DNA from: Tubiluchus corallicola | Lineage: Eukaryota > Animalia > Priapulida | Length of the DNA: 64,000 nt | Assembly: GCA_030141605.1 (NCBI GenBank) | Contig: JAQGDQ010000519.1 | Span: forward strand, 1 to 64,000 | Direction of reading: 5' to 3' | Shown here: positions 1 through 57,407 of the stretch, piece by piece | Position numbering within the stretch: the first letter of the stretch is position 1 | Layout of the letters: each line of letters opens with the position of its first letter | Program-made: the position numbers and the translations under genes | The notes under the pieces: generated by a model | Seen by the model: the letters and a program-made list of their open reading frames with translations, nothing else | What the model was told of the DNA's origin: nothing | Database searches by the model: none

Positions 1-605
1 GGACCAAGTTATTCCCGCATACACAGGAAAGCTGTGTTTAGTTCCACAAGCAAGCTGTTTCTGACTCAGAACACTGTTATTAATAACTTGCTGTACAATA
101 CTGATACAACTTTTAGATACAATATACTTAGTTTTTCATGCATACGTAGCAAGGCTGTAGATACAATGTACTTAGTTTTTCATGCATACGTAGCAAGGAT
201 GTATTTAGTTTCAGAAGTTGGCTGTTTTTCAGTCAGAATACTGTTATTAATAACTTGCTGTGAAATACTGATTCAATTTTAAGATCGAATATTTTTAAGC
301 GGGTGGCAGAGAATTTTATTTACCCATTCTAACGAATCCTTTCTTGTATATAAGCTGACTATGTGAGTGAACATCGTCTAAAATAAAATGAATAAATGCT
401 GCTACATCACATCTTTAGACTAGCATATTTAACATTGAGTGAAAGTTCAGCTTCTGGCCACCGTATGCTCGTCAACATACAAACTCGCTCGATCAGTACG
501 TTTATCCTGGAACTGTATTAACTTTATGAAATTGCTAATAAGCAGCATAACGCATTAATTATTCACTAGCCAAACCCCACAAAAAGAATTTTGTGCACAA
601 ATCAA

Positions 606-1197
606 CACACAACCCACACCACACCACTCCACCTCATCACACCACACTGCACCACACCACTCCACCTCATCACACCACACTGCACCACACCATACCACTC
701 CACCTCATCGGACCACACCATACCACCTACACACCATACCACCTACACACCACACCACCCACACCATACCACTCCACCACATCACACCACACTGCACCAC
801 ACCATACCACTGCACCACCCACACACCACACCACACCACCCACACCATAATACTCCACCACATCACACCGCACAGCACCACACCATAACACCACACTGCA
901 CACCCACCTACACACCACACCACCCACACCATACCACTCCACCACATCACACCACACCGCACCACACCATACCACTGCAGCACACCGCACCATCCACACA
1001 CCACACCACCCACACCATACGACTCCACCACATCACACCACACTGCACCACACCATATCACTGCACCGCACCACCCACACACCACACCACACCACTAACA
1101 CCATAATACTCCACCACATCACACCCCACACACCCTATCACCCCACCACACCATCTATATAGCACAACACACAAAGCACACCACCACCACACCACAT
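606..1197 (+). repeat. (CACCA)n-rich degenerate satellite; mirror at about 14030-14625
   Basis: Degenerate cacca/cacac pentamers with longer recurring blocks such as ccataccactccaccacatcacaccacactgcaccaca. Confidence 0.9.
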
Positions 1198-1359
1198 CAA
1201 ATCCACCACCTCACGTGGTGATCATGATGTTGATGATGATGATGATGATTCTGGCAACGATGACGACACCTATAGCACAAGCACCAACAGCACAGCATTA
1301 CAACAAAACCATTCCAAACATTTTTCACAAAGTTGAAACTATGTGCTATAATATAATAA

Positions 1360-1860
1360 ATAGCAAAGGCCCCGCAAAAGATTTTGCGTAAAAAACCACG
1401 TGTAATCAATAATACGCGAACATCCTACCTAGTCCTCATTTATAACACAAAGCCCGTAACATCATGCCTACTGTTTGTTTAACTAACGCAAAGCCTGCAG
1501 CTTTTTGCTGAATTAAAGTTATAAGCAGAGTATAATGGATTACGTCACAACAATGGCATTGCGTCTGCAATTTTCTAAGCGAAAATTGCCGAAAATAGAA
1601 CTCCTAATTAACTGGTCGGTACTTCTCTCGGTGGACCTGCCCTAACATATAGCCCACATCATCGTGTAGCACCATTCTTCCTCTTTGTAAAGAGCCCCAT
1701 ATCTCCTTCCTAGAGTCCCACCGGGCGACGCTAGAACGTTTTTCCCGCAGGCTGTTTGGTCAAAATTTCGAAAAAATCGCGAGTTGGGTCCGGGAAAGCG
1801 TCCGTTACGGGACGCCGTGGCCCTCTCGCGAATTCTAAATATGTAGTATAGTATAGTATG
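1360..1860 (-). mobile_element. Non-autonomous Helitron-like element (mirror at about 13375-13867 +)
   Basis: On the minus strand it begins in a ctatactata run and ends with hairpin cgcaaaa-tc-ttttgcg followed by gggcctttgcta. The related copy at 15300 ends in canonical CTAG|T. Confidence 0.6.
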
Positions 1861-2191
1861 GTATGGTATGGTATGGTATGGCATGGCATGGCATGGCATG
1901 GCATGGCATGGTATGGTATGGTATGGTATGGTATGGTATGGTATGGTATGGTATAGTATAGTATAGTATAGTATAGTATAGTATAGTATAGTATAGTATA
2001 GTATAGTATAGTAGAGTAGAGTAGAGTAGAGTATAGGCTTAGGCATAAAAAATTGCAATCGGCCAGTCGGTCATTGCACTCAGTCAATCAGTCAGTCAGT
2101 CGGTCGGTCGGTCGGTCGATCGGTCTGTCTGTCTGTCTGTCTGTCTGCCTGTCTGTCTGTCAGTTAGTCAGTCAGTCAGTCAGTCAGTCAG
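1846..2191. repeat. Compound microsatellites (tagta/tggta/tggca/tagag; gtca/gtcg/gtct); mirror about 13023-13383
   Basis: Directly visible pentamer and tetramer runs. Confidence 0.95.
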
Positions 2192-2287
2192 TGTTAAATA
2201 ATGTACTATATAATCGTAATTCTACTTCAATTGTTTGAAATTGCTCTATGCATTCAAACAGAATCAAATTGCCTAACTTGTCTCCTG

Positions 2288-2423
2288 AGTGTGACCCGTT
2301 GGGGAGATAAGAAACGCTGTTTGGAGAGCATTAGTGTGACCTGTTGGGGAAATAAGAAACGCTCTTTGGAGAGCATTAGTGTGACCCGTTGGGGAAATAA
2401 GAAACGCTGTTTGGATAGCATTA
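2288..2423. repeat. 46-bp tandem repeat x3 (mirror about 12792-12927)
   Basis: agtgtgacccgttgggga(g/a)ataagaaacgctgtttggagagcatt repeated three times. Confidence 0.9.
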
Positions 2424-3054
2424 TTATGAGACTGTTGGAGATAAAAATACACATAAAACAAAACTGTCTGGATCCTGAATTCGGTGTCACGTAAAAACGT
2501 GATAACGGCAAAGAAGCGTGAGAGACCGTCACCTGTGCAGCATGAGAACTAAACCAAGAAAACACGTGTATTTACAAAGGTCACACTTGTTTTTTGCAAG
2601 AAGTTGTCAAAAATTGCTGTTAATAATAGATCCCATGAGCGTATAAAATACCTATCAACTGTAACCATTTTTCAAGTTTGCAAACTTTGCACATTGTCAT
2701 GCGTTGCTAAAACCTTTTTTGCTGGAAAATGTCGGCCATGTGATAAGTGAAACTCTTTCAATTAGGAAATTGTAATTACAACAAGTAATGACTATTTTTA
2801 GGAATTAACAACCAAAAAAATCACGTAAAGTTAATTTAAGCAGGAGCTTTTTTGCTCTAAACACCCTTTTTTAACAAGTATGTCAAAGAAGGCATGAAAT
2901 TTTTAGCATAATATTTTCATTAAATTTTTTTAGAAGATTATTCTCTAATTATTTTAAGTTTGAATCTCGAAAGAAGCTTTTTAAGATTTTCCTTTTAGAT
3001 TTAGCCGAGCAGTTAGTTGGTTTCAGACTTAGAAAAACTGCGCATATTATTACA

Positions 3055-4512
3055 CTTACTTAAATGAAAAAATGATTATAGTTATGCATGCTTCTGTAGA
3101 TAACTTAATGTAAATAAGGATGAAGTAAATGATGTAATAATTTGAGTAGTGCGAGGTGAGTGTACGACCATACGGTCATTAACACACTCACCTTACTTAA
3201 ATGAAAAAATGATTATAGTTATGCATGCTTCTGTAGATAACTTAATGTAAATAAGGATGAAGTAAATGATGTAATAATTTGAGTAGTGCGAGGTGAGTGT
3301 ACGGCCATACGGTCATTAACACACTCACCTTACTTAAATGAAAAAATGATTATAGTTATGCATGCTTCTGTAGATAACTTAATGTAAATAAGGATGAAGT
3401 AAATGATGTAATAATTTGAGTAGTGCGAGGTGAGTGTACGACCATACGGTCATTAACACACTCACCTTACTTAATGAAAAAATGATTATAGTTATGCATG
3501 CTTCTGTAGATAACTTAATGTAAATAAGGATGAAGTAAATGATGTAATAATTTGAGTAGTGCGAGGTGAGTGTACGACCATACGGTCATTAACACACTCA
3601 CCTTACTTAAATGAAAAAATGATTATAGTTATGCATGCTTCTGTAGATAACTTAATGTAAATAAGGATGAAGTAAATGATGTAATAATTTGAGAAGTGCG
3701 AGGTGAGTGTACGACCATACGGTCATTAACACATTCACCTTACATAAATGAAAAAATGATTATAGTTATGCATGCTTCTGTAGATAACTTAGTGTAAATA
3801 AGGATGAAGTAAATGATGTAATAATTTGAGTAGTGCGAGGTGAGTGTACGACCAAACGGTCATTAACACACTCACCTTACTTAAATGAAAAAATGATTAT
3901 AGTTATGCATGCTTCTGTAGATAACTTAATGTAAATAAGGATGAAGTAAATGATGTAATAATTTGAGTAGTGCGAGGTGAGTGTACGACCATACGGTCAT
4001 TAACACACTCACCTTACTTAAATGAAAAAATGATTATAGTTATGCATGCTTCTGTAGATAACTTAATGTAAATAAGGATGAAGTAAATGATGTAATAATT
4101 TGAGTAGTGTGAGGTGAGTGTACGACCATACGGTCATTAACACACTCACCTTACTTAAATGAAAAAATGATTATAGTTATGCATGCTTCTGTAGATAACT
4201 TAATGTAAATAAGGATGAAGTAAATGATGTAATAATTTGAGTAGTGCGAGGTGAGTGTACGACCATACTGTCATTAACACACTCACCTTACTTAAATGAA
4301 AAAAATGATTATAGTTATGCATGCTTCTGTAGATAACTTAATGTAAATAAGGATGAAGTAAATGATGTAATAATTTGAGTAGTGCGAGGTGAGTGTACGA
4401 CCAAACTGTCATTAACACACTCACCTTACTTAAATGAAAAAATGATTATAGTTATGCATGCTTCTGTAGATAAGTTAATGTAAATAAGGATGAAGTAAAT
4501 GATGTAATAATA
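3055..4512 (+). repeat. 137-bp tandem array (~10.6 units) with internal hairpin
   Basis: Unit starts ttacttaaatgaaaaaatg at 3056, 3193, 3330 and so on. Each unit contains aggtgagtgt-ac-gacc-atac-ggtc-attaac-acactcacct. Confidence 0.97.
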
Positions 4513-4984
4513 GCAATGGTATAAGAGCAATAAACCTGAAAGTTGAGAAAGGAAAACATAATATGTAATTACGACTTTGAGTGAGCCTTAAAGAGTGAAA
4601 ACATTTTTTTTTAAATAGTTACGAATGTGAATTATGTGATTATCTGTCAATGTACTTTTTGTTTCTCTCTTGTTTGTTTTGTTATTTTCCTCTAGCGACC
4701 TTGCTCCGTGAACCTCTAATAAGTATATTCATTTCGATATGAATTGACCAAAAATAAAAGAATTGACCATGATTTGTGGACTAGGATCAATACGTGATGA
4801 TGAATATTGAGATCCATTCTTGCTGCAATCATGAGTTATGTAAAATGTTTAGAAAACGCTCCATGGTTTGCTCTATCAAGAGAAACTTTTCTGAAATTGA
4901 AAGGTATAACTGATAGCTTGACCTATCCACCCCAGCAGTTGAAGATAGACCATTTCATCAGGCGGAGGAATATATATATATTTT

Positions 4985-5064
4985 TCTCTCTCTCTCTCTC
5001 TCTCTCTCGCTCTCTCTCTCTCTCTGTCTCTCTCTCTCTCACTCTCTCTCTCTCTCTCTCTGTC

Positions 5065-5119
<55 letters not shown>

Positions 5120-5175
5120 TCCTTTCTCCCTCGCTTATCTCTTTCTTTCTTTCTCTCCTATTTCTGTCTCTCTCT
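4985..5175. repeat. (CT)n microsatellite (mirror (AG)n about 10060-10232)
   Basis: Direct observation. Confidence 0.95.
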
Positions 5176-5214
5176 TTATTGTGTTCTTAATTTTTACATT
5201 GTTGTTATCACAGA

Positions 5215-5261
5215 TAACTCCGCCATAGCCGGTCCCAAGCCCGGTTGAGAGAGGAGGAGGG
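5215..5261 (+). ncRNA. Twister self-cleaving ribozyme core at RTE 5' end
   Basis: UAA-CUCC-GCC-AUA-GCCGG-UCCCAAGC-CCGG-UUGAGAGA-GGAG-GAGGG matches the P1-type twister consensus (compare rice twister UAACACUGCCAAUGCCGGUCCCAAGCCCGGAUAAAAGUGGAGGG). P2 CUCC/GGAG, P4 CCGG/CCGG and pseudoknot CCC/GGG are present. Confidence 0.9.
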
Positions 5262-8200
5262 TTGGGCTTAGGGTTAGCACCCCTATCCTGTAAAAGTTCT
5301 AAATTGCTACAGAAACAGACAGAAACAAATCTACTGACACAAATCGGCACAAAGCAGAAAGTTCGACCCATGTTATGACGATGCTAGGTCAAAGCCGAGA
5401 GGAAGCCCAGCATCCGATGAAGAACTCTATACTGAGTGCCACAAAGGTGACAAAAATTGGCACCTGGAATGTAAGAACAATGTTCCAAACAGGAAAAATG
5501 GCCCAAGTTATCCGGGAATTCAACAACTATCAACTCAGTATCTTAGGCGTAACGGAAGTGAGATGGACAGGAAGCGGAAACATCAAGAGTGGAGAAACAA
5601 CCTTTCTGTATTCAGGACCAGAGGAGGATCACCAGAGAGGTGTTGGTCTGATGCTGAACAAAGAGGCAGCAAAGACACTAATAGGATGGAACCCAGTCAG
5701 TGAGAGGATAATAACTGCCCGAATACAGTCAAGGCATGCGAAAACAACAATTGTTTGCATTTACGCACCAACTGAAGATACAGATGAACAAGTTAAAGAT
5801 GATTTCTACCAACAATGTCAAGATGTGCTGAATGACATCCCCAGCCATGACATCATTCTCCTCATGGGTGATATGAATGCAAAGATTGACAACAACAGAC
5901 ACGGACTGGAGCATGTAATCGGGCCACATGGATCAGCTCAAGAAACAAACAACAATGGTGAACGGCTCCTGATGTTGTGCAATTTAAATGGACTGTGTAT
6001 TGGAAATACTTATTTTGCCCACAAAACCATCCACAAGAAGACATGGAGGTCACCAGATGGAAATACACAGAACGAAATCGACTACATCTGTATCAGCAAG
6101 AGATGGAGATCAGCACTGAAAGATGTGAAAGTATGTCGTGGAGCTGATGTGGGCTCTGACCACCACCTAGTTCAAGGAAAAGTGCAGCTCAAACTGAAAA
6201 AGATACAAAAGCCAAAAATCACAAGACCTTTTGCGGTTGAAAACCTGAAAGACCAACAAAAAGCAAGAAGTTTTGAACTTGCACTTAGCAACAAATTTGA
6301 ACCACTACTACAAGCCAACGATATTGAAGAACAGTGGAAAATATTCAAAGAAGCAGTAACAGCAGTTGCAGATGAACAGATCGGCAGAAGAAGGGGTAAC
6401 AGAAAAGAAATGTGGATACAAGAAAAAACTTGGGAATTAATTGATGAAAGAAAGAAGACTAAGCAAATGAGAGACCAAGCAAAAACACCAGAAAGCAGGA
6501 GCCAAGCCAATGAGCAGTACCAACTGGCAGATAGAGCAGTAAAAAGACGTTGCAGGAGGGACAAGAACGAATGGTTTGAAAAGAAGGGTGAAGAAGCACA
6601 GTTAGCAGCCAGCCATAATGATACCAAGACTCTCTACAGAATTGTTAAAGATCTAACGGGAACAGGAGGCACCCCAGCTGTGCCAGTCAAGAACAAAAGT
6701 GGTGTGACTCTCACAACAACAGAACAGCAAAACGCACGATGGGTGGAACACTTCAAGGAAGTTCTCAACCAGCCAAACCCAACAACATTATTCAATTTTG
6801 AGAACGAAATTGGACAACAACAGCTAGATGTAAGATTGGACAACATCAGTGAACTGGAAGTCGAAACTGCCATCAAAAAACTAAAGAACAACAAAGCAGC
6901 TGGAGAGGAGCAAATAACAGCTGAGCTCCTGAAACACGGTAATAAAGGGATAACACGATCAATGACAAAGCTCCTGAACAGCTGCTGGGAACAATAAAAG
7001 GTCCCCGAAGATTGGAGAAATGGAGTCATCGTGAAGTTGCCTAAAAAAGGGAACCTGACAGATTGCAACAATTGGAGAGGAATAACTCTGATGTCAATAC
7101 CTGGAAAAGTCCTGAGTATAGTGCTGCTAGATCGGTTGAGAGATGCTGTTGATATAAGACTAAGAGAACAACAAGCTGGATTTAGAAAAGGAAGATCATG
7201 CTGTGAACAGATATTCACTCTCCGAAACATCATTGAGCAATGTATGGAATTCCAACAGCCCTTATTAATCAATTTTATTGATTTCAAGAAGGCTTTTGAC
7301 TCTGTTCACAGGCAGTCTCTATGGAAAATAGCTTCTCTGTATGGTTTCCCACAGAAATTCATTTCAACCATCCAGAACTTTTACCAAAACAGCGGCTGTT
7401 GTATAAGAACACAAGAGGGAAACACCGTGTATTTCACCATCGAAACTGGAGTTAAGGAAGGTTGCATTATGTCGCCATTCCTGTTCCTACTGACGATTGA
7501 TTTCATCATGAACAAGGCGGTTGATGGTAAAGATCTAGGAATGCAATGGAAACAACAACAACGATTGGCAGATCTGGACTTTGCTGACGATATAGCTCTT
7601 CTGGAAACATCAAAAGAAAGCCTGCAACAACTGACCACAAGTATGGAAGAAGTAGCGGGAAAAATTGGATTGAGAATTAGTCAAGAAAAGACCAAAGTTT
7701 TGAAAGTGTGGACAAACCAACAGAATGATGTACATATAACAGTGGGAGGCCAAATGGTTAAGAACGTTACCAGTTTTTCATATCTGGGCAGTGTGATGAC
7801 CTGTAATGGAGGTACAGAAAATGACATCAGGGGGAGAATTGGCAAAGCAACAGCAGTATTTAGGAAGATGGGAAAAATCTGGACAAGCAAGAAAATTGAC
7901 ATGAAAATCAAACTTCGTCTGTACAACGCCATTGTGCTGCCAACGGCTCTCTATGCCAGCAAAACCTGGAAAGTCACAGCGGAGTTATCAAAGAAACTGA
8001 ACGTCTTCCACCAAAAATGCCTTCGAAAGATACTAAAAATCTCCTACCGCGACCATGTCACCAATGTAGAAGTTCTTCAACGAGCGCAGTCATTGCGGTT
8101 ACAAGATATAGTTACAGAGAGAAGAATGAAACTGGCTGGACATATTCTCCGTCTATCAGAAAGTCGCTACGCCAAAACAGCAGTACAGTGGGAACCACCT

Positions 8201-8381
8201 GGTGGGAAACGAAAAAGAGGTCGGCCAAAAACAACGTGGCGCAGATCCTTCAAAGAAGACCTTCGAGCTGTCAACAGACGTTGGGAAAACGTAGAGAACG
8301 AAGCCGCCGATAGAACTCAGTGGAAAATGCTGTCTGCCCAATGTGCATCAATGCGCAGGAAGGACTAAGGTCTAAGGTAAG
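5216..8381 (+). mobile_element. Full-length RTE-clade non-LTR retrotransposon (~3.17 kb)
   Basis: TSD gttatcacagata at 5204-5216 and 8382-8394; (c)taagg tail repeats at 8365-8382; single APE-RT reading frame; twister-containing 5' UTR. Confidence 0.95.
5375..8368 (+). pseudogene. RTE APE endonuclease / reverse transcriptase ORF with one in-frame stop (TAA 6995-6997)
   Basis: APE motifs IGTWNVRT, GDMNAK, IDYI, SDHH; RT motifs QAGFRKGRSC, FIDFKKAFDSV, FADD, YLGS; C-terminal RGRPKTTW. ORFs 5375-6997 and 7031-8368 are in the same frame (WEQ*KVPEDWR). Confidence 0.93.
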
Positions 8382-8436
8382 GTTATCACAGATATAGTGA
8401 TTGAAGCCAAAGCGAGATGTTATTATTATTTTTTTG

Positions 8437-10018
8437 TAATGTTGTTTTGTTTGGCTGGTTGAGCACTTCCTTGAAGTGTTCCACCCATCGTGCGTTTTGC
8501 TGTTCTGTTGTTGTTAGGGAAGTCACACCACTTGTTCTTGACTTGCTTTGCCCAGCTGGGGTGCCTCCTGTTCCCGTTAGATCTTTAACAATTCTGTAGA
8601 AAGTCTTTGGTATCATTATGGCTGGCTGCTAACTGTGCTTCTTCACCCTTCTTTTCAAACCATTCGTTCTTGTCCCTCCTGCAACGTCTTTTTACTGCTC
8701 TATCTGCCAGTTGGTACTGCTCATTGGCTTGGCTCCTGCTTTCTGGTGTTTTTGCTTGGTCTCTCATTTGCTTAGTCTTCTTTCTTTCATCAATTAATTC
8801 CCAAGTTTTTTCTTGTATCCACATTTCTTTTCTGTTACCCCTTCTTCTGCCGATCTGTTCATCTGCAACTGCTGTTACTGCTTCTTTGAATATTTTCCAC
8901 TGTTCTTCAATATCGTTGGCTTGTAGTAGTGGTTCAAATTTGTTGCTAAGTGCAAGTTCAAAACTTCTTGCTTTTTGTTGGTCTTTCAGGTTTTCAACCG
9001 CAAAAGGTCTTGTGATTTTTGGCTTTTGTATCTTTTTCAGTTTGAGCTGCACTTTTCCTTGAACTAGGTGGTGGTCAGAGCCCACATCAGCTCCACGACA
9101 TACTTTCACATCTTTCAGTGCTGATCTCCATCTCTTGCTGATACAGATGTAGTCGATTTCGTTCTGTGTATTTCCATCTGGTGACCTCCATGTCTTCTTG
9201 TGGATGGTTTTGTGGGCAAAATAAGTATTTCCAATACACAGTCCATTTAAATTGCACAACATCAGGAGCCGTTCACCATTGCTGTTTGTTTCTTGAGCTG
9301 ATCCATGTGGCCCGATTACATGCTCCAATCCGTGTCTGTTGTTGTCAATCTTTGCATTCATATCACCCATGAGGAGAATGATGTCATGGCTGGGGATGTC
9401 ATTCAGCACATCTTGACATTGTTGGTAGAAATCATCTTTAACTTGTTCATCTGTATCTTCAGTTGGTGCGTAAATGCAAACAATAGTTGTTTTCGCATGC
9501 CTTGACTGTATTCGGGCAGTTATTATCCTCTCACTGACTGGGTTCCATCCTATTAGTGTCTTTGCTGCCTCTTTGTTCAGCATCAGACCAACACCTCTCT
9601 GGTGATCCTCCTCTGGTCCTGAATACAGAAAGGTTGTTTCTCCACTCTTGATGTTTCCGCTTCCTGTCCATCTCACTTCCGTTACGCCTAAGATACTGAG
9701 TTGATAGTTGTTGAATTCCCGGATAACTTGGGCCATTTTTCCTGTTTGGAACATTGTTCTTACATTCCAGGTGCCAATTTTTGTCACCTTTGTGGCACTC
9801 AGTATAGAGTTCTTCATCGGATGCTGGGCTTCCTCTCGGCTTTGACCTAGCATCGTCATAACATGGGTCGAACTTTCTGCTTTGTGCCGATTTGTGTCAG
9901 TAGATTTGTTTCTGTCTGTTTCTGTAGCAATTTAGAACTTTTACAGGATAGGGGTGCTAACCCTAAGCCCAACCCTCCTCCTCTCTCAACCGGGCTTGGG
10001 ACCGGCTATGGCGGAGTT
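8437..10018 (-). mobile_element. Inverted 3'-truncated copy of the same RTE insertion (5' UTR + APE domain)
   Basis: ORF 8585-9859(-) is nearly identical to 5375 onward. It has the same 5' flank/TSD sequence at 10018-10030. Frameshifts cluster at about 8500-8610. Confidence 0.95.
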
Positions 10019-10019
10019 A
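9973..10019 (-). ncRNA. Twister ribozyme core (mirror copy)
   Basis: Exact reverse complement of 5215-5261. Confidence 0.88.
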
Positions 10020-10114
10020 TCTGTGATAACAACAATGTAAAAATTAAGAACACAATAAAGAGAGAGACAGAAATAGGAGAGAAAGAAAGAAAGAGATAAG
10101 CGAGGGAGAAAGGA

Positions 10115-10237
<123 letters not shown>

Positions 10238-10702
10238 AATATATATATTCCTCCGCCTGATGAAATGGTCTATCTTCAACTGCTGGGGTGGATAGGTCAA
10301 GCTATCAGTTATACCTTTCAATTTCAGAAAAGTTTCTCTTGATAGAGCAAACCATGGAGCGTTTTCTAAACATTTTACATAACTCATGATTGCAGCAAGA
10401 ATGGATCTCAATATTCATCATCACGTATTGATCCTAGTCCACAAATCATGGTCAATTCTTTTATTTTTGGTCAATTCATATCAAAATGAATATACTTATT
10501 AGAGGTTCACGGAGCAAGGTCGCTAGAGGAAAATAACAAAACAAACAAGAGAGAAACAAAAAGTACATTGACAGATAATCACATAATTCACATTCGTAAC
10601 TATTTAAAAAAAAATTTCACTCTTTAAGGCTCACTCAAAGTCGTAATTACATATTATGTTTTCCTTTCTCAACTTTCAGGTTTATTGCTCTTATACCATT
10701 GC

Positions 10703-12159
10703 TATTATTACATCATTTACTTCATCCTTATTTACATTAAGTTATCTACAGAAGCATGCATAACTATAATCATTTTTTCATTTAAGTAAGGTGAGTGTGT
10801 TAATGACAGTTTGGTCGTACACTCACCTCGCACTACTCAAATTATTACATCATTTACTTCATCCTTATTTACATTAAGTTATCTACAGAAGCATGCATAA
10901 CTATAATCATTTTTTCATTTAAGTAAGGTGAGTGTGTTAATGACAGTTTGGTCGTACACTCACCTCGCACTACTCAAATTATTACATCATTTACTTCATC
11001 CTTATTTACATTAAGTTATCTACAGAAGCATGCATAACTATAATCATTTTTTCATTTAAGTAAGGTGAGTGTGTTAATGACCGTATGGTCGTACACTCAC
11101 CTCACACTACTCAAATTATTACATCATTTACTTCATCCTTATTTACATTAAGTTATCTACAGAAGCACGCGTAATTATAATCATTTTTTCATTTAAGTAA
11201 GGTGAGTGTGTTAATGACCGTATGGTCGTACACTCACCTCGCACTACTCAAATTATTACATCATTTACTTCATCCTTATTTACATTAAGTTATCTACAGA
11301 AGCATGCATAACTATAATCATTTTTTCATTTAAGTAAGGTGAGTGTGTTAATGACCGTATGGTCGTACACTCACCTCGCACTACTCAAATTATTACATCA
11401 TTTACTTCATCCTTATTTACACTAAGTTATCTACAGAAGCATGCATAACTATAATCATTTTTTCATTTATGTAAGGTGAATGTGTTAATGACCGTATGGT
11501 CGTACACTCACCTCGCACTTCTCAAATTATTACATCATTTACTTCATCCTTATTTACTTTGAGTTATCTACAGAAGCATGCATAACTATAATCATTTTTT
11601 CATTTAAGTAAGGTGAGTGTGTTAATGACCGTATGGTCGTACACTCACCTCGCACTACTCAAATTATTACATCATTTACTTCATCCTTATTTAGATTAAG
11701 TTATCTACAGAAGCATGCATAACTATAATCATTTTTTCATTAAGTAACGTGAGCGTGTTAATGACCGTATGGTCGTGCACTCACCTCGCACTACTCAAAT
11801 TATTACATCATTTACTTCATTCTTATTTACATTAAGTTATCTACAGAAGCATGCATAATTATAATCATTTTTTCATTTAAGTAAGGTGAGTGTGTTAATG
11901 ACCGTATGGTCGTACACTCACCTCGCACTACTCAAATTATTACATCATTTACTTCATCCTTATTTACATTAAGTTATCTACAAAAGCATGCATAACTATA
12001 ATCATTTTTTCATTTAAGTAAGGTGAGTGTGTTAATGACCGAATGGTCGTACACTCACCTCGCACTACTCAAATTATTACATCATTTACTTCATCCTTAT
12101 TTACATTAAGTTATCTACAGAAGCATGCGTAACTATAATCATTTTTTCATTTAAGTAAG
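10703..12159 (-). repeat. 137-bp tandem array, mirror copy
   Basis: Reverse complement of 3055-4512 with scattered private variants. Confidence 0.97.
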
Positions 12160-13067
12160 TGTAATAATATGCGCAGTTTTTCTAAGTCTGAAACCAACTA
12201 ACTGCTCGGCTAAATCTAAAAGGAAAATCTTAAAAAGCTTCTTTCGAGATTCAAACTTAAAATAATTAGAGAATAATCTTCTAAAAAAATTTAATGAAAA
12301 TATTATGCTAAAAATTTCATGCCTTCTTTGACATACTTGTTAAAAAAGGGTGTTTAGAGCAAAAAAGCTCCTGCTTAAATTAACTTTACGTGATTTTTTT
12401 GGTTGTTAATTCCTAAAAATAGTCATTACTTGTTGTAATTACAATTTCCTAATTGAAAGAGTTTCACTTATCACATGGCCGACATTTTCCAGCAAAAAAG
12501 GTTTTAGCAACGCATGACAATGTGCAAAGTTTGCAAACTTGAAAAATGGTTACAGTTGATAGGTATTTTATACGCTCATGGGATCTATTATTAACAGCAA
12601 TTTTTGACAACTTCTTGCAAAAAACAAGTGTGACCTTTGTAAATACACGTGTTTTCTTGGTTTAGTTCTCATGCTGCACAGGTGACGGTCTCTCACGCTT
12701 CTTTGCCGTTATCACGTTTTTACGTGACACCGAATTCAGGATCCAGACAGTTTTGTTTTATGTGTATTTTTATCTCCAACAGTCTCATAATAATGCTATC
12801 CAAACAGCGTTTCTTTTTTCCCCAACGGGTCACACTAATGCTCTCCAAACAGCGTTTCTTATTTCCCCAACAGGTCACACTAATGCTCTCCAAACAGCGT
12901 TTCTTATCTCCCCAACGGGTCACACTCAGGAGACAAGTTAGGCAATTTGATTCTGTTTGAATGCATAGAGCAATTTCAAACAATTGAAGTAGAATTACGA
13001 TTATATAGTACATTATTTAACACTGACTGACTGACTGACTGACTGACTAACTGACAGACAGACAGGC

Positions 13068-13099
<32 letters not shown>

Positions 13100-15299
13100 C
13101 GATCGACCGACCGACCGACCGACCGACTGACTGACTGATTGACTGAGTGCAATGACCGACTGGCCGATTGCAATTTTTTATGCCTAAGCCTATACTCTAC
13201 TCTACTCTACTATACTATACTATACTATACTATACTATACTATACTATACTATACTATACTATACTATACTATACTATACTATACTATACTATACCATGC
13301 CATGCCATGCCATGCCATGCCATGCCATGCCATGCCATGCCATACCATACCATACCATACCATACCATACTATACTATACTACATATTTAGAATTCGCGA
13401 GAGGGCCACGGCGTCCCGTAACGGACGCTTTCCCGGACCCAACTCGCGATTTTTTCGAAATTTTGACCAAACAGCCTGCGGGAAAAACGTTCTAGCGTCG
13501 CCCGGTGGGACTCTAGGAAGGAGATATGGGGCTCTTTACAAAGAGGAAGAATGGTGCTACACGATGATGTGGGCTATATGTTAGGGCAGGTCCACCGAGA
13601 GAAGTACCGACCAGTTAATTAGGAGTTCTATTTTCGGCAATTTTCGCTTAGAAAATTGCAGACGCAATGCCATTGTTGTGACGTAATCCATTATACTCTG
13701 CTTATAACTTTAATTCAGCAAAAAGCTGCAGGCTTTGCGTTAGTTAAACAAACAGTAGGCATGATGTTACGGGCTTTGTGTTATAAATGAGGACTAGGTA
13801 GGATGTTCGCGTATTATTGATTACACGTGGTTTTTTACGCAAAATCTTGTGCGGGGCCTTTGCTATTTATTATATTATAGCACATAGTTTCAACTTTGTG
13901 AAAAATGTTTGGAATGGTTTTGTTGTAATGCTGTGCTGTTGGTGCTTGTGCTATAGGTGTCGTCATCGTTGCCAGAATCATCATCATCATCATCAACATC
14001 ATGATCACCACGTGAGGTGGTGGATTTGATGTGGTGTGGTGGTGGTGTGCTTTGTGTGTTGTGCTATATAGATGGTGTGGTGGGGTGATAGGGTGTGTGG
14101 GGTGTGATGTGGTGGAGTATTATGGTGTTAGTGGTGTGGTGTGGTGTGTGGGTGGTGCGGTGCAGTGATATGGTGTGGTGCAGTGTGGTGTGATGTGGTG
14201 GAGTCGTATGGTGTGGGTGGTGTGGTGTGGTGTGTGGGTGGTGCAGTGTGCTGCAGTGGTATGGTGTGGTGCAGTGTGGTGTGATGTGGTGGAGTGGTAT
14301 GGTGTGGGTGGTGTGGTGTGTAGGTGGGTGTGTGGTGTGGTGTTATGGTGTGGTGCTGTGCGGTGTGATGTGGTGGAGTATTATGGTGTGGGTGGTGTGG
14401 TGTGGTGTGTGGGTGGTGCAGTGGTATGGTGTGGTGCAGTGTGGTGTGATGTGGTGGAGTGGTATGGTGTGGGTGGTGTGGTGTGTAGGTGGTATGGTGT
14501 GTAGGTGGTATGGTGTGGTCCGATGAGGTGGAGTGGTATGGTGTGGTGCAGTGAGGTGTGATGAGGTGGAGTGGTGTGGTGCAGTGTGGTGTGATGAGGT
14601 GGAGTGGTGTGGTGTGGGTTGTGTGTTGATTTGTGCACAAAATTCTTTTTGTGGGGTTTGGCTAGTGAATAATTAATGCGTTATGATGCTTATTAGCAAT
14701 TTCATAAAGTTAATACAGTTCCAGGATAAACGTACTGATCGAGCGAGTTAGTATGTTGACGAGCATACGGTGGCCAGAAGCTGAACTTTCACTCAATGTT
14801 AAATATGCTAGTCTAAAGATGTGATGTAGCAGCATTTATTCATTTTATTTTAGACGTTGTTCACTCACATAGTCAGCTTATATACAAGAAAGGATTCGTT
14901 AGAATGGGTAAATAAAATTCTCTGCCACCCGCTTAAAAATATTCGATCTTAAAATTGAATCAGTATTTCACAGCAAGTTATTAATAACAGTATTCTGACT
15001 CAAAAACAGCTTACTTCTGAAACTAAATACAGCCTTGCTACGTATGCATGAAAAACTAAGTACATTGTATCTACAGCCTTGCTACGTATGCATGAAAAAC
15101 TAAGTATATTGTATCTAAAACTTGTATCAGTATTGTACAGCAAGTTATTAATAACAGTGTTCTGAGTCAGAAACAGCTTGCTTGTGGAACTAAACACAGC
15201 TTTCCTGTGTATGCGGGAATAACTTGGTCCATCGTAGCTAACGTACATTTAGCTTGCGTCTAGGAAAATTAAAGAATCCTCTAATAGCATTATTATAGA

Positions 15300-28619: not shown

Positions 28620-28990
28620 NNNNNNNNNNNNNNNNNNNNNNNNNNNNNNNNNNNNNNNNNNNNNNNNNNNNNNNNNNNNNNNNNNNNNNNNNNNNNNNNN
28701 NNNNNNNNNNNNNNNNNNNNNNNNNNNNNNNNNNNNNNNNNNNNNNNNNNNNNNNNNNNNNNNNNNNNNNNNNNNNNNNNNNNNNNNNNNNNNNNNNNNN
28801 NNNNNNNNNNNNNNNNNNNNNNNNNNNNNNNNNNNNNNNNNNNNNNNNNNNNNNNNNNNNNNNNNNNNNNNNNNNNNNNNNNNNNNNNNNNNNNNNNNNN
28901 NNNNNNNNNNNNNNNNNNNNNNNNNNNNNNNNNNNNNNNNNNNNNNNNNNNNNNNNNNNNNNNNNNNNNNNNNNNNNNNNNNNNNNNNNN
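28620..28990. other. Assembly gap (N run)
   Basis: 371 N. Confidence 1.
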
Positions 28991-29883
28991 AAGTTTGCCA
29001 AATTTGAAAAGTGCGTCTAATTTGTTCCCACTAGCTAAGTCCTGTAAAAATTTTTTCATAAAATCGGAACTGAATTTAAATCATAGGAATTATCAAAACT
29101 CCCGCAAATTTGCCACAATAGTGCAAGCTGTAACTACTGTACTGTCATTCTGGCTTTTGCTACACCTGTCATAATCATTGTCACAGTCAACATCATCATC
29201 AGTGTCATCTTTGCCATAATTATCACTGTTATCATCAGCGTCGTTATTATCGTGATAATGTCATCACTAGCATCATCATTGTCATCATCAATATTAGTGC
29301 CATCACTTACTGTAATCACTCGACGTTATTTATTGACAGCAGCAACAGTAACAGTGGTGATGGCGATGATAATTATTATGATCACTGCTAACAATATTAA
29401 CAGCAGTAACAACAATAACAACAGCAACAGCAACAACACGATGACAGCAATAATGATGATGATGGTGGTGGTGGTAGTAGTAATCCCAACAGAAGAGCGA
29501 GCAAGAAACAGACAAACAAAAAAGAGGAAGCGAACAAAAAACAAACAAATACAAACAACAATATAAGCCTTTATAACTTATTCAAGTAGGTTATATAAAA
29601 TATGTTTTTGTTGTACAAACTTTCCTTGTACGAAACTTTCTCTGTACCGAATTTTCCTACTATCAAAAAAGCTTTCCGAGTACTAAATTTTCCTAGTACC
29701 AAACTTGTTCCGTACCATTTTTAACTTGTACTATATTTACTTGTACCAAAAATGTCTGACAAAACTTCGTTAGTACCATATTTACTAGCATCATATTTTC
29801 CCTGTACCAATTTTTCTCAGTACCAAAATTACCGCGTACCAAAATTCTTAGTACTGTAGATTTTCACGGTAGCAAAATTTCTT

Positions 29884-31532
29884 TGTACCAAAATACCGGT
29901 TCCAAACTTACCTGTACCAAATTTACTTGTACCAAACTTACCTGTACCAACTTTACTTGTACCATACTTACCTGTACCAAATTTACTTGTACCAAACTTA
30001 CCTGTACCAACTTTACTTGTACCATACTTACCTGTACCAAATTTACTTGTACCAAACTTACCTGTACCAAATTTACTTGTACCAAACTTACCTGTACCAA
30101 ATTTACTTGTACCATACTTACCTGTACCAAATTTACTTGTACCAAACTTACCTGTACCAAATTTACTTGTACCAAACTTACCTGTACCAACTTTACTTGT
30201 ACCATACTTACCTGTACCAAATTTACTTGTACCAAACTTACCTGTACCAAATTTACTTGTACCAAACTTACCTGTACCAAACTTACTTGTACTAAATTTA
30301 TTTATACCAAACTTACCTGTACCAAATTTACTCGTAGCAAACTTACTTGTACCAAATTTACTTGTACCAAACTTACTTGTACCAAATTTACTTGTACCAA
30401 ACTTACCAATACCAAATTTACTTGTACCATACTTACCTGTACCAAATTTACTTGTACCAAACTTACCTGTACCAAATTTACTTGTACCAAACTTACCTGT
30501 ACCAAATTTACTTGTACCAAACTTACCTGTACCAAATTTACTTGTACCAAACTTACCTGTACCAAATTTACTTGTACCAAACTCACCTGTACCAAATTTA
30601 CTTGTACAAAACTTACCTGTACCAAATTTACTTGTACCAAACTTACCTGTACCAAATTTACTTGTACCAAACTCACCTGTACCAAACTTACCTGTACCAA
30701 ATTTACTTGTACCAAACTTACCTATACCAAATTTACTTGTACCAAACTTACCTGTACCAAATTTACTTGTACCAAACTTACCTGTACCAAATTTACTTGT
30801 ACCAAACTTACCTGTACCAAATTTACTTGTACCAAACTTACCTGTACCAAATTTACTTGTACCAAACTTACCTGTACCAAATTTACTTGTACAAAACTTA
30901 CCTGTACCAAATTTACTTGTACCAAACTTACCTGTACCAAATTTACTTGTACAAAACTTACCTGTACCAAATTTACTTGTACCAAACTTACCAATACCAA
31001 ATTTACTTGTACCATACTTACCTATACCAAATTTACTTGTACCATACTTACCTGTACCAAATTTACTTGTACCAAACTTACCTGTACCAAACCTACCTGT
31101 ACCAAACTTACCTGTACCAAATTTACTTGTACAAAACTTACCTGTACCAAATTTACTTATACCAAACTTACCTGTACTAAATTTACTTGTACCAAACTTA
31201 CCTGTACCAAATTTACTTGTACCAAACTTACCTGTACCAAACCTACCTGTACCAAACTTACCTGTACCAAATTTACTTGTACAAAACTTACCTGTACCAA
31301 ATTTACTTATACCAAACTTACCTGTACTAAATTTACTTGTACCAAACTTACTTGTACCAAATTTACTTGTACCAAACTTACCAATACCAAATTTACTTGT
31401 ACCATACTTACCTATACCAAATTTACTTGTACCATACTTACCTGTACCAAATTTACTTGTACCAAACTTACCTGTACCAAACCTACCTGTACCAAACTTA
31501 CCTGTACCAAATTTACTTGTACCAAACTTACC
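29884..31532 (+). repeat. 15-bp minisatellite (tgtaccaaaYttacY) with 30-bp dimer higher order
   Basis: Alternating tgtaccaaacttacc / tgtaccaaatttact; degenerate units extend left to about 29610. Confidence 0.97.
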
Positions 31533-32310
31533 GCGAACCTACACGTGACTTGTACATTTTGACAACACCGTTTATATGTGATGGAATTACACTATGTAAA
31601 CAATAGCGTTTTGTTTAATAGCTTAGGATTAGGATTAGGGTTTTTTCCTCTGAGAATTTCTACGACTTTATTACCTGGCGTGTGCTACAGTTAATCCGTA
31701 TTACGACAGGCCCTGATGTATAACTCGATTCTATCGCCTCTTGCGCGAGTAAGAGCCGTCAAAATGTCAGGGAGTGACTTCACTGAGTGATCTCGTGTGA
31801 TAATGATATCATAGGAACTGCAGCTCAGCATTATTACACGACAAAACTGTCTAAACCGCGTTAAACGAGATCACATGCTTTCTGACGTAAGTCGCTAAAA
31901 TGTCTACAGCTTTCTACGGGCTTTTAGAACTTTTTACAGCTTTGAATCCATTTGCGTTTTGGCTGAATACTGCTGCAGTGCTTCTCTACTGATGAACAAG
32001 CAGAAATCCTGGAAAATGGCTTTGCTGAGTTCATTCATAATTCAACAACAAGCAGCGAGTGTGTTGTGATCATGGCTCAAGGTTTCAGTGTGGCCATATT
32101 GTCTCTGTGTGATCTTTCAGAAGCTTAGCTAATCAATCTGCTGCTAAGTTCTAAGTAATTACAGCAACGAGACGCCAAGGAAGCCAGTTTAATCTTCTCC
32201 GATGGTCTTCTCAGGGGACACGTTAATGTCAAAAGCATGATTTGTTTCAGCAAAAAGTTTGGCTGTCATCAGCTGTGTGCGTTTCGTATTCAAATTTAGT
32301 GAACAATCGG

Positions 32311-56548: not shown

Positions 56549-57096
56549 TCACGATAGACCACTTTTCAACAAATCTGTGTCATTCAATATGAACTTCTGC
56601 AAAAGTTTATCGATGCGGCTAGCGGACAAAGCCGTCTGTTTCTCCATGCTGATGCGAAAATCCTCGCTGACATTTCGGTTCACTCCCCTCGTGACGGTCC
56701 GATTCCCGACTATTGCCGAAGTGCTCAGCGGCATCAGATCTAGCGTCACTGTCGTTTGGTGGCGGCGAATGTAAGCGAATTCCTCCAACATGTCAATGTT
56801 CACAACGTACGTGAAGAAACTGTTGTAGGTGAAGATTTTCTTCTTCGTAATTTTGTCGATTACTCTGCGGAAAGATTCTTCTCCTTTCGGCCAATCGTAC
56901 TGCAGGAAAACGAGCAAGTTTCCTAGCAACTGATCGGATTCTACACCACTACCCAGTCTCTTCTTCATACAAGTGAGCAACAGCAGGAAACAGTAGTGGA
57001 TGATATTTTGTTGACTAGCAATTAATAAATGGAGATGGCGTCGCAGGCCTGGTTGTATAATATTCTCATCAGTAGGTTGCTCTGATTCTCCTTCAG
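56549..57096 (-). CDS. INTS10: Integrator complex subunit 10, last coding exon
   Basis: LQYDWPKGE, FFTYVVNIDMLEEFAY and RTVTRGVN..EDFR..MEKQ are INTS10 C-terminal signatures; acceptor ttctgtag|ctgaag. Confidence 0.92.
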
Positions 57097-57407
57097 CTAC
57101 AGAAATAAACACAGTGTATACTGCTACTTCCTTCAGCTACAAAAATAAAAACTGGGTATACTACTACTTCCTTCAGCTACAAAAATAAAAACTGGGTATA
57201 CTACTACTTCCTTCAGCTACAAAAATAAAAACTGGGTATACTACTACTTCCTTCAGCTACAAAAATAAAAACTGGGTATACTACTACTTCCTTCAGCTAC
57301 AAAAATAAAAACTGGATATACTACTACTTCCTTCAGCTACAAAAATAAACACAGTGTATACTACTACTTCCTTCAGCTACAAAAATAAACACAGTGTATA
57401 CTGCTAC
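57089..57407 (-). repeat. 40-bp tandem repeat comprising the INTS10 terminal splice acceptor (7 extra copies)
   Basis: Units at 57121, 57161 ... 57361; minus-strand unit tatacccagtttttatttttgtag|ctgaaggaagtagtag. Confidence 0.93.

What the first reader, a model, noticed from the sequence alone, without database searches (positions are those of the whole stretch)
5204..5290. RTE 5' end falls exactly at a twister ribozyme cleavage site, with the scissile U supplied by host target DNA
Seen: the TSD gttatcacagat(a) ends at 5215/5216 and the element starts aactccgccatagccggtcccaagcccgg. Established: twister cleaves between U and A of the L1 UAA, and twister variants process RTE-clade elements (Perere-3) in Schistosoma. 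Inference: the integrated cDNA derives from the self-cleaved RNA. The 5' P1 strand is lost (cacaga pairs poorly with uugggc), but the target's terminal T recreates U|AA, so a P1-less mini-twister may be regenerated by target choice.
Basis: partly seen in the sequence, partly recalled or inferred. Interest (0 to 1): 0.75.

Follow-up and report, generated by a model that had tools for sequence, protein, structure and literature searches.

The report
Twister ribozyme heading an RTE retrotransposon
This 3.2-kb jumping gene begins, to within one base, where a predicted self-cutting "twister" RNA at its head would cut, so it likely frees its RNA from longer host transcripts as already published for a blood-fluke element; the T in front of the cut is host DNA, but related elements show no preference for it.

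Summary
Confirmed: a full-length RTE-type LINE (endonuclease + RT; one in-frame stop) at 5216/5217-8381 with a 12-13 bp TSD. Its first ~46 bases are a type-P1 twister core (Rfam RF03160, 46.9 bits, E 1.4e-9, below the 67.2 gathering score). T5215 stands in both TSD copies, so it is host DNA; A5216 is ambiguous by one base. In public runs, six other junction flanks of the family all join at 5214-5217. Not supported: that target choice must restore a U. Published assays show any base works there, and T precedes AA in 16 of 46 related junctions (35% against 32% background). Within this family the share is about half, inconclusive at ~10 copies. P1 is weak rather than absent (3 of 4 model pairs). 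The arrangement, including host DNA supplying the 5' side, is published for Perere-3 (PMC8501958), and this scan noted it before in other genomes. Extras: a moderately covarying hairpin just 3' of the core overlaps the P1 3' strand, and a host-made hairpin is predicted to cover this copy's cut site. Cleavage was not tested. New member of a known kind.

The parts
5191..5195 (+). T5 stretch 9-13 bases upstream of the TSD; fits the RTE insertion signature (T stretch near P-10)
   Evidence: sequence; PMC6007223 abstract and passages; a single case in an AT-rich flank, so weak
5204..5215 (+). 5' target-site duplication (12 bp; 13 with A5216); its last base T5215 is the -1 base of the ribozyme cut site
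5204..5218 (+). Copy-specific predicted hairpin GUUAUC-ACA-GAUAAC made of TSD plus the first element bases; would cover the scissile U-A
   Evidence: pair probabilities 0.56-0.87, -2.5 kcal/mol, model without pseudoknots
5215..5261 (+). Twister core: U|AA 5215-5217 (predicted cut 5215/5216), P2 5218-5221/5253-5256, P4 5229-5232/5241-5244, loop UCCCAAGC 5233-5240, pseudoknot partners GC 5222-5223/GC 5239-5240 and CCC 5234-5236/GGG 5259-5261, predicted general base G5257, general acid A5216; no P3
   Evidence: Rfam alignment 5211-5265; roles assigned from PMC5408937 and PMC11662667 passages and from the recalled twister consensus
5263..5290 (+). Predicted hairpin directly 3' of the core, followed by UAAAA; uses the bases that would be the P1 3' strand
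   Evidence: 19 sequences, 92% of 189 cells paired, 5 of 10 pairs with double changes; weak in this copy alone (z 0.44; probability 0.07-0.67)
5375..8368 (+). Single ORF from the first in-frame ATG: APE-type endonuclease (PF03372) then RT (PF00078, FADD); broken by in-frame TAA at 6995-6997
8366..8381 (+). 3' tail of short TAAG(G) repeats starting at the stop codon; G8382 could be tail or TSD
8382..8393 (+). 3' target-site duplication (to 8394 if 13 bp)
8437..10030 (-). Mirror copy of the 5' TSD and first 1.6 kb of the element, part of a 6.8-kb inverted duplication; not an independent insertion

Best explanation
This is a full-length, now mutated RTE-type LINE whose first bases match a type-P1 twister ribozyme, and its 5' end likely marks the site where that ribozyme cut the parent RNA out of a longer transcript. 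Shown: anatomy, TSD, host origin of T5215, twister match, family junctions at 5214-5217. Inferred: a parent copy was transcribed by read-through; the RNA cut itself 5' of the AA; the product was reverse transcribed at a new site to its last base; second-strand joining used the target end, here with one ambiguous A, and the result is a TSD abutting AA. Whatever base the target puts at -1 gives a cleavable N|AA, so no choice of target is needed. The ribozyme is likely close to P1-independent, with the P1 3' strand predicted to sit in an element-encoded hairpin. This copy is probably a poor source: in-frame stop, and a predicted hairpin over the cut site.
For: Rfam match with all core positions present. 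TSD abuts AA. Six other distinct flanks in runs X1-X3 join at 5214 (1), 5215 (1), 5216 (3), 5217 (1); word depth in X2 rises 290, 850, 1600, 1971 for words starting at 5214, 5215, 5216, 5217 against 154 for the window's own flank. In two tight families from metagenome contigs (12 and 11 distinct flanks) the commonest base holds 30-39% of copies at -1 to -10 and 96-100% at the two As, which were not in the search pattern. Locus L022 is a 3.7-kb EN+RT element whose 13-bp TSD ends exactly at |AA. Same anatomy with in vitro and reporter cleavage for Perere-3. P1 dispensable, -1 base free.
Against: Cleavage and expression were not tested. The score is below the Rfam gathering cut-off. Depth of contigs is a rough proxy, 17 of the pieces were not shown, X2 and X3 are one sample, and a run may be the source of the assembly. 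About a fifth of family depth starts at 5217 or later, not at AA. T share within this family (~50%) is above the 31.5% background though not significantly (p 0.06-0.18 for 5-6 of 10-11; 0.04 if the family had twice as many copies). The downstream hairpin passes the weaker shuffle measures (0/500) but not the two stricter ones (38/500 and 395/500).
Confidence: 0.85

Rival explanations
1. One reading: this family prefers targets that leave T at -1 (for example because its endonuclease nicks the second strand at T|A), so a canonical U|AA is rebuilt more often than by chance.
For: T at -1 in ~53% (X2) and ~48% (X3, same sample) of AA-starting depth, and in 3 of 6 AA-starting junctions seen. The empty site here reads T|A; in 3 of 4 copies with a clear TSD (window, L070, L089; not L022) the base after the -1 position is A. 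U is slightly better than A or G in a large assay (0.76 for perfect ribozymes against 0.72 and 0.68).
Against: Only ~10 copies; p 0.06-0.18. No T excess in 46 related junctions (16, p=0.41) or in 22 from two tight families (7, p=0.59). U is not needed for cleavage.
Confidence: 0.15
2. Liu et al. model in its strong form: the host TSD rebuilds P1, and P1 quality decides which copies stay active.
For: 3 of 4 model pairs here; rates differ among T-variants; model stated in PMC8501958 section 21.
Against: Host flanks pair with the P1 3' strand no better than random flank 4-mers: 1.57 against 1.66 +/- 0.13 of 4, full P1 in 3 of 46; P1 pair probability 0.0 here (no pseudoknots); P1 imperfections do not lower cleavage. 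Caveat: a junction survey tests insertion, not which copies later become parents.
Confidence: 0.2
3. The twister is an inherited relic, or serves only translation, and the 5' end is set by something else (an internal promoter start or the end of reverse transcription) that falls at the same place.
For: No activity data; sub-threshold Rfam score; some copies start at 5217.
Against: Core, both pseudoknot pairings and catalytic positions are intact; boundary at AA across unrelated families; activity shown for the same layout in Schistosoma.
Confidence: 0.08

Closest known systems
T-variant twister ribozymes at the 5' end of Perere-3, Schistosoma mansoni (Liu et al. 2021, PMC8501958; read: abstract, Results parts 1-2 of 4, sections 19, 21, 22, two supplement passages)
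   Same: Twister at the head of a single-ORF APE+RT element, TSD next to the AA, host TSD forming the -1 base and 5' P1 side, variable number of As, GTAA-like 3' repeats, identical CUCC-GC, CCGGUCCCAAGCCCGG and GGAGGAGGGUUGG blocks; Schistosoma supplement entries continue GGGTTGGGCATGGGG like the 5' arm of the hairpin here.
   Different: No P3 stem-loop here (5-nt linker); another host and family (best RT hit over the full query 65% identical; no direct comparison with Perere-3 protein was run); exact head sequence not in their supplement (0 hits); the 3' hairpin is not discussed in the sections read.
Truncated twisters at the 5' end of RTE-superfamily retrotransposons (de la Pena and Cervera review, PMC7761336; three passages read)
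   Same: States that truncated but catalytically competent twisters are conserved at RTE 5' ends and likely process the RNA from upstream transcripts.
   Different: Cited there as 'in preparation'; the full study was not found in searches.
Mini-twister lacking P1 (as reviewed in PMC5408937; passages read)
   Same: A twister without P1 cleaves a single 5' nucleotide at near wild-type rate.
   Different: Engineered; here P1 is weak and host-dependent, with a natural 3' hairpin.
HDV-like ribozymes of R2 (PMC3774820; abstract only)
   Same: Self-cleavage defines the 5' end; where the cut is at the element's end, junctions vary and are thought to be primed by chance microhomology.
   Different: Different ribozyme class, site-specific insertion, different endonuclease.

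Membership tests
Twister ribozyme, type P1 (Rfam RF03160) | Covariance-model match over the whole model | tested here: inconclusive
   46.9 bits, E 1.4e-9, model 1-68/68, but below gathering 67.2; the copy lacks P3 and has a weak P1
Twister ribozyme, type P1 (Rfam RF03160) | P2, P4, loop L4 and two pseudoknot pairings possible | tested here: met
   alignment; CUCC/GGAG, CCGG/CCGG, CCC/GGG, GC/GC read from the sequence
Twister ribozyme, type P1 (Rfam RF03160) | Conserved N|AA at the cut and G of GAGGG | tested here: met
   U5215 A5216 A5217 and G5257
Twister ribozyme, type P1 (Rfam RF03160) | P1 stem | tested here: inconclusive
   3 of 4 model pairs, predicted probability 0.0; dispensable
Twister ribozyme, type P1 (Rfam RF03160) | Site-specific self-cleavage | not testable with these tools
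   needs an in vitro assay; the supplement of PMC11662667, which may list a near-identical tested ribozyme, could not be read
RTE-clade LINE | Single ORF with APE endonuclease then RT | tested here: met
   one in-frame stop at 6995-6997
RTE-clade LINE | Very short 3' UTR with short tandem repeats; TSD of 7-15 bp | tested here: met
   range from PMC6007223 passage
RTE-clade LINE | RT groups with reference RTE elements in a tree | not tested
   no named RTE references were fetched; homologs are ~1000-aa EN+RT proteins of animals, one named CFDP2-like (its link to RTE is recalled); R2 and L1 are distant
Perere-3-like T-variant element | TSD directly next to the AA of the cut site | tested here: met
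   (within one base)
Perere-3-like T-variant element | Heterogeneous targets, variable number of As | tested here: met
   six other flanks, starts at 5214-5217
Perere-3-like T-variant element | Co-transcription of ribozyme and ORF | tested here: inconclusive
   no RNA holder listed; a blank is no evidence

The most novel reading that the evidence does not exclude
RTE-type twisters across animals are natural P1-less ribozymes by design: the strand that would be the 3' half of P1 is captured by a conserved, covarying hairpin plus UAAAA (5263-5295) that stays on the cleaved RNA, making cleavage independent of target sequence (against the published idea that the TSD rebuilds P1) and offering a candidate signal for cap-free translation or for the RT finishing at the 5' end. 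Host flanks would matter only negatively, as in this copy where the TSD folds back over the cut site.
Probability: 0.4. Interest if true: 0.42.

Novelty: new member of a known kind. Interest (0 to 1): 0.2.

Why it matters
It extends a mechanism shown in one blood-fluke element to another animal RTE family and gives a clean, young example (both TSDs perfect, about a dozen copies). It does not add a new principle. The testable side result is that target sequence appears unselected at -1 and for P1 pairing, and that a 3' hairpin may replace P1; this would refine the published model of how insertion site affects a copy's activity.

Tried and rejected
Whole-genome search: no genome is held for this window, so the genome-wide family alignment could not be made; public-run contigs were used instead. 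Rfam gathering scan: 0 hits. No RNA holder listed; run X6 laid 0 contigs; X4 had no cover over the head. The mirror copy at 9989-10018 was rejected as a second insertion. Clusters 1, 4 and 5 mix families, so the boundary profile used clusters 2 and 3 only. Viral contigs gave 2 loci, neither of this type. Single-strand folding gave no significant z-scores (-0.82 to 0.44), as expected for a pseudoknotted RNA. NCBIfam added only generic RT hits. Searches for a paper on RTE twisters beyond Liu 2021 found only the 'in preparation' note.

Full report
Observation. The 12-mer GTTATCACAGAT stands on the + strand only at 5204-5215 and 8382-8393, and both copies are followed by A. Between them lies a 3.16-kb element with one reading frame (first in-frame ATG 5375, stop 8366-8368, an in-frame TAA at 6995-6997) coding for an APE-type endonuclease (PF03372, E 4e-8) and an RT (PF00078, E 5e-33), ending in TAAG(G) repeats. 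Homologs are ~1000-residue EN+RT proteins of animals, up to 65% identical over the RT half. This is RTE-type anatomy; a tree against named RTE references was not run. The element starts at 5216 (12-bp TSD) or 5217 (13-bp TSD); the sequence cannot decide. T5215 is in both TSD copies and is host DNA. The second copy of this head at 9989-10018 (minus) belongs to an inverted duplication that includes the flank and gives no independent evidence.

The ribozyme. Rfam twister-P1 matches 5211-5265 end to end at 46.9 bits, E 1.4e-9 in a 301-base search, below the gathering score of 67.2 (0 hits). P2, P4, the loop UCCCAAGC, both pseudoknot pairings, A5216, A5217 and G5257 are all present; P3 is absent. 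The model pairs CAGA with UUGG at 3 of 4 positions, so P1 is weak rather than missing, although partition-function folding without pseudoknots gives it probability 0.0. The predicted cut is 5215/5216. Cleavage could not be tested.

Do family copies start there? No genome is held. Four DNA-type runs from 2 studies hold the element. Laying their contigs shows six other distinct flanks joining at 5214 (one flank, seen in X1 and X2), 5215 (one), 5216 (three) and 5217 (one), and none sharing sequence further 5' (the window's own flank contig appears only, and 17 pieces were not shown). In X2 the 31-letter words starting at 5214, 5215, 5216 and 5217 have depth 290, 850, 1600 and 1971, the core 2039, the window's flank 154: roughly 13 copies, about 10 starting with AA, about 5.5 of them after T. 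X3, the same sample, gives 24, 50, 60. Depth is a rough proxy only. T at -1 in 5-6 of 10-11 copies against 31.5% T gives p 0.06-0.18 (0.04 if the copy number were double).

Related elements. Of 119 matches 93 had the twister 3' half; 72 distinct junctions remained, 67 ending in AA. Many have EN/RT 150-400 bases downstream. Five clusters with several flanks gave 49 junctions, 46 with AA; the -1 base was T 16, A 15, C 9, G 6 against flank frequencies 0.32, 0.32, 0.19, 0.18 (T p=0.41), and pairing with the P1 3' strand was 1.57 of 4 against 1.66 +/- 0.13 for random flank, full in 3 of 46. In the two tight families the commonest base holds 30-39% of 23 copies at -1 to -10 and 96-100% at the two As; T at -1 in 7 of 22. 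Against this, the unfiltered set has T in 33 of 67 (49%), which includes singletons with their own P1. L022 is a full-length element with a 13-bp TSD ending exactly at |AA.

Two extra features. (1) Directly 3' of the core, 19 aligned sequences support a hairpin at 5263-5290 followed by UAAAA: 92% of 189 cells paired, 16 cells and 5 of 10 pairs with double changes; 0/500 shuffles reach the paired share, the double-change cells or the covariation score, but 38/500 reach the number of such pairs and 395/500 the pair types; slid partners give 45-65%. The structure was drawn from this alignment and the sequences are related, so support is moderate; RNAalifold predicts 7 of the same pairs. The hairpin uses U5263-G5266, which overlap the P1 3' strand. 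In this copy alone it is weak. (2) The TSD and the first element bases form GUUAUC-ACA-GAUAAC, predicted at 0.56-0.87 but only -2.5 kcal/mol, which would cover the scissile bond in a read-through transcript of this copy.

Mechanism. Most likely (0.85): read-through transcript, self-cleavage 5' of AA, target-primed reverse transcription to the last base, joining to the target end, TSD abutting AA. Anatomy and boundaries are shown; transcription, cleavage and joining are inferred. The host supplies the -1 base by necessity, but it need not be U: C|AA, G|AA and A|AA cleave (PMC8501958 section 19), all four bases are tolerated among ~1900 natural twisters and P1 defects have no effect (PMC11662667 passages and section 32 part 2), and P1-less twisters cleave at near wild-type rate (PMC5408937 passages). 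One-base overlaps at ribozyme-defined 5' ends fit the microhomology priming proposed for R2 (PMC3774820 abstract). A family-specific T|A preference remains possible (0.15).

What is known. Liu et al. 2021 report twister variants upstream of all 113 full-length Perere-3, TSDs next to the AA, the TSD forming the 5' P1 strand, and activity in vitro and in reporters. A 2020 review says truncated, active twisters are conserved at RTE 5' ends ('in preparation'). PMC13725137 and PMC6765202 (passages) added nothing specific. The 3' hairpin was not found described in the sections read or in searches; supplements and subscription papers not seen may hold it. Four earlier, unreviewed notes of this scan describe twister-headed RTE derivatives in other genomes; they agree with the reading stated before the look-up and are not counted as evidence.

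Verdict. Real, correctly seen, and a new member of a known kind. Interest 0.2; 0.42 if the hairpin-replaces-P1 reading (probability 0.4) holds.

Noticed in passing
window 1-6790 and 8437-15230: 6.8-kb (or longer; it reaches the window start) inverted duplication, 98.5% identical with indels, folding back 43 bases after the 3' TSD. Flank depth in X2 and X3 (154, 7.2) is like that of other single junction contigs (112-167; 4.7-9.2), so it may be an assembly artefact or joined haplotypes.
   Followed up: partly
   Followed up: no
window 56549-57098, minus strand: Last coding exon of an Integrator subunit 10 gene (PF21045, E 3.5e-36), preceded by a tandem array of ~40-60-bp units (seen to 57400) that each repeat the splice acceptor and first exon bases.
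   Followed up: partly
window 3055-4511 (mirror 10704-12159), 29749-31560, 28620-28990: 137-bp and 15-bp tandem arrays, and a 371-base N gap.
   Followed up: no
L003, L026, L038, L062, L072, L074, L088, L090, L093, L105, L112: A twister-headed family with 11 different flanks and no EN/RT match downstream in the DNA held; 7 of 11 have extra As before the AA. Candidate non-autonomous element.
   Followed up: partly
L070, L089: Short (~570 and ~105 bp) twister-headed inserts with 12-14 bp TSDs ending one base into the AA: likely internally deleted RTE derivatives.
   Followed up: partly
L002/L031/L064 and L032/L054/L077/L104: Two groups share TTGTATTTAA before the core although they differ downstream; possible shared target or element-borne 5' extension; L064 has EN+RT downstream.
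   Followed up: no
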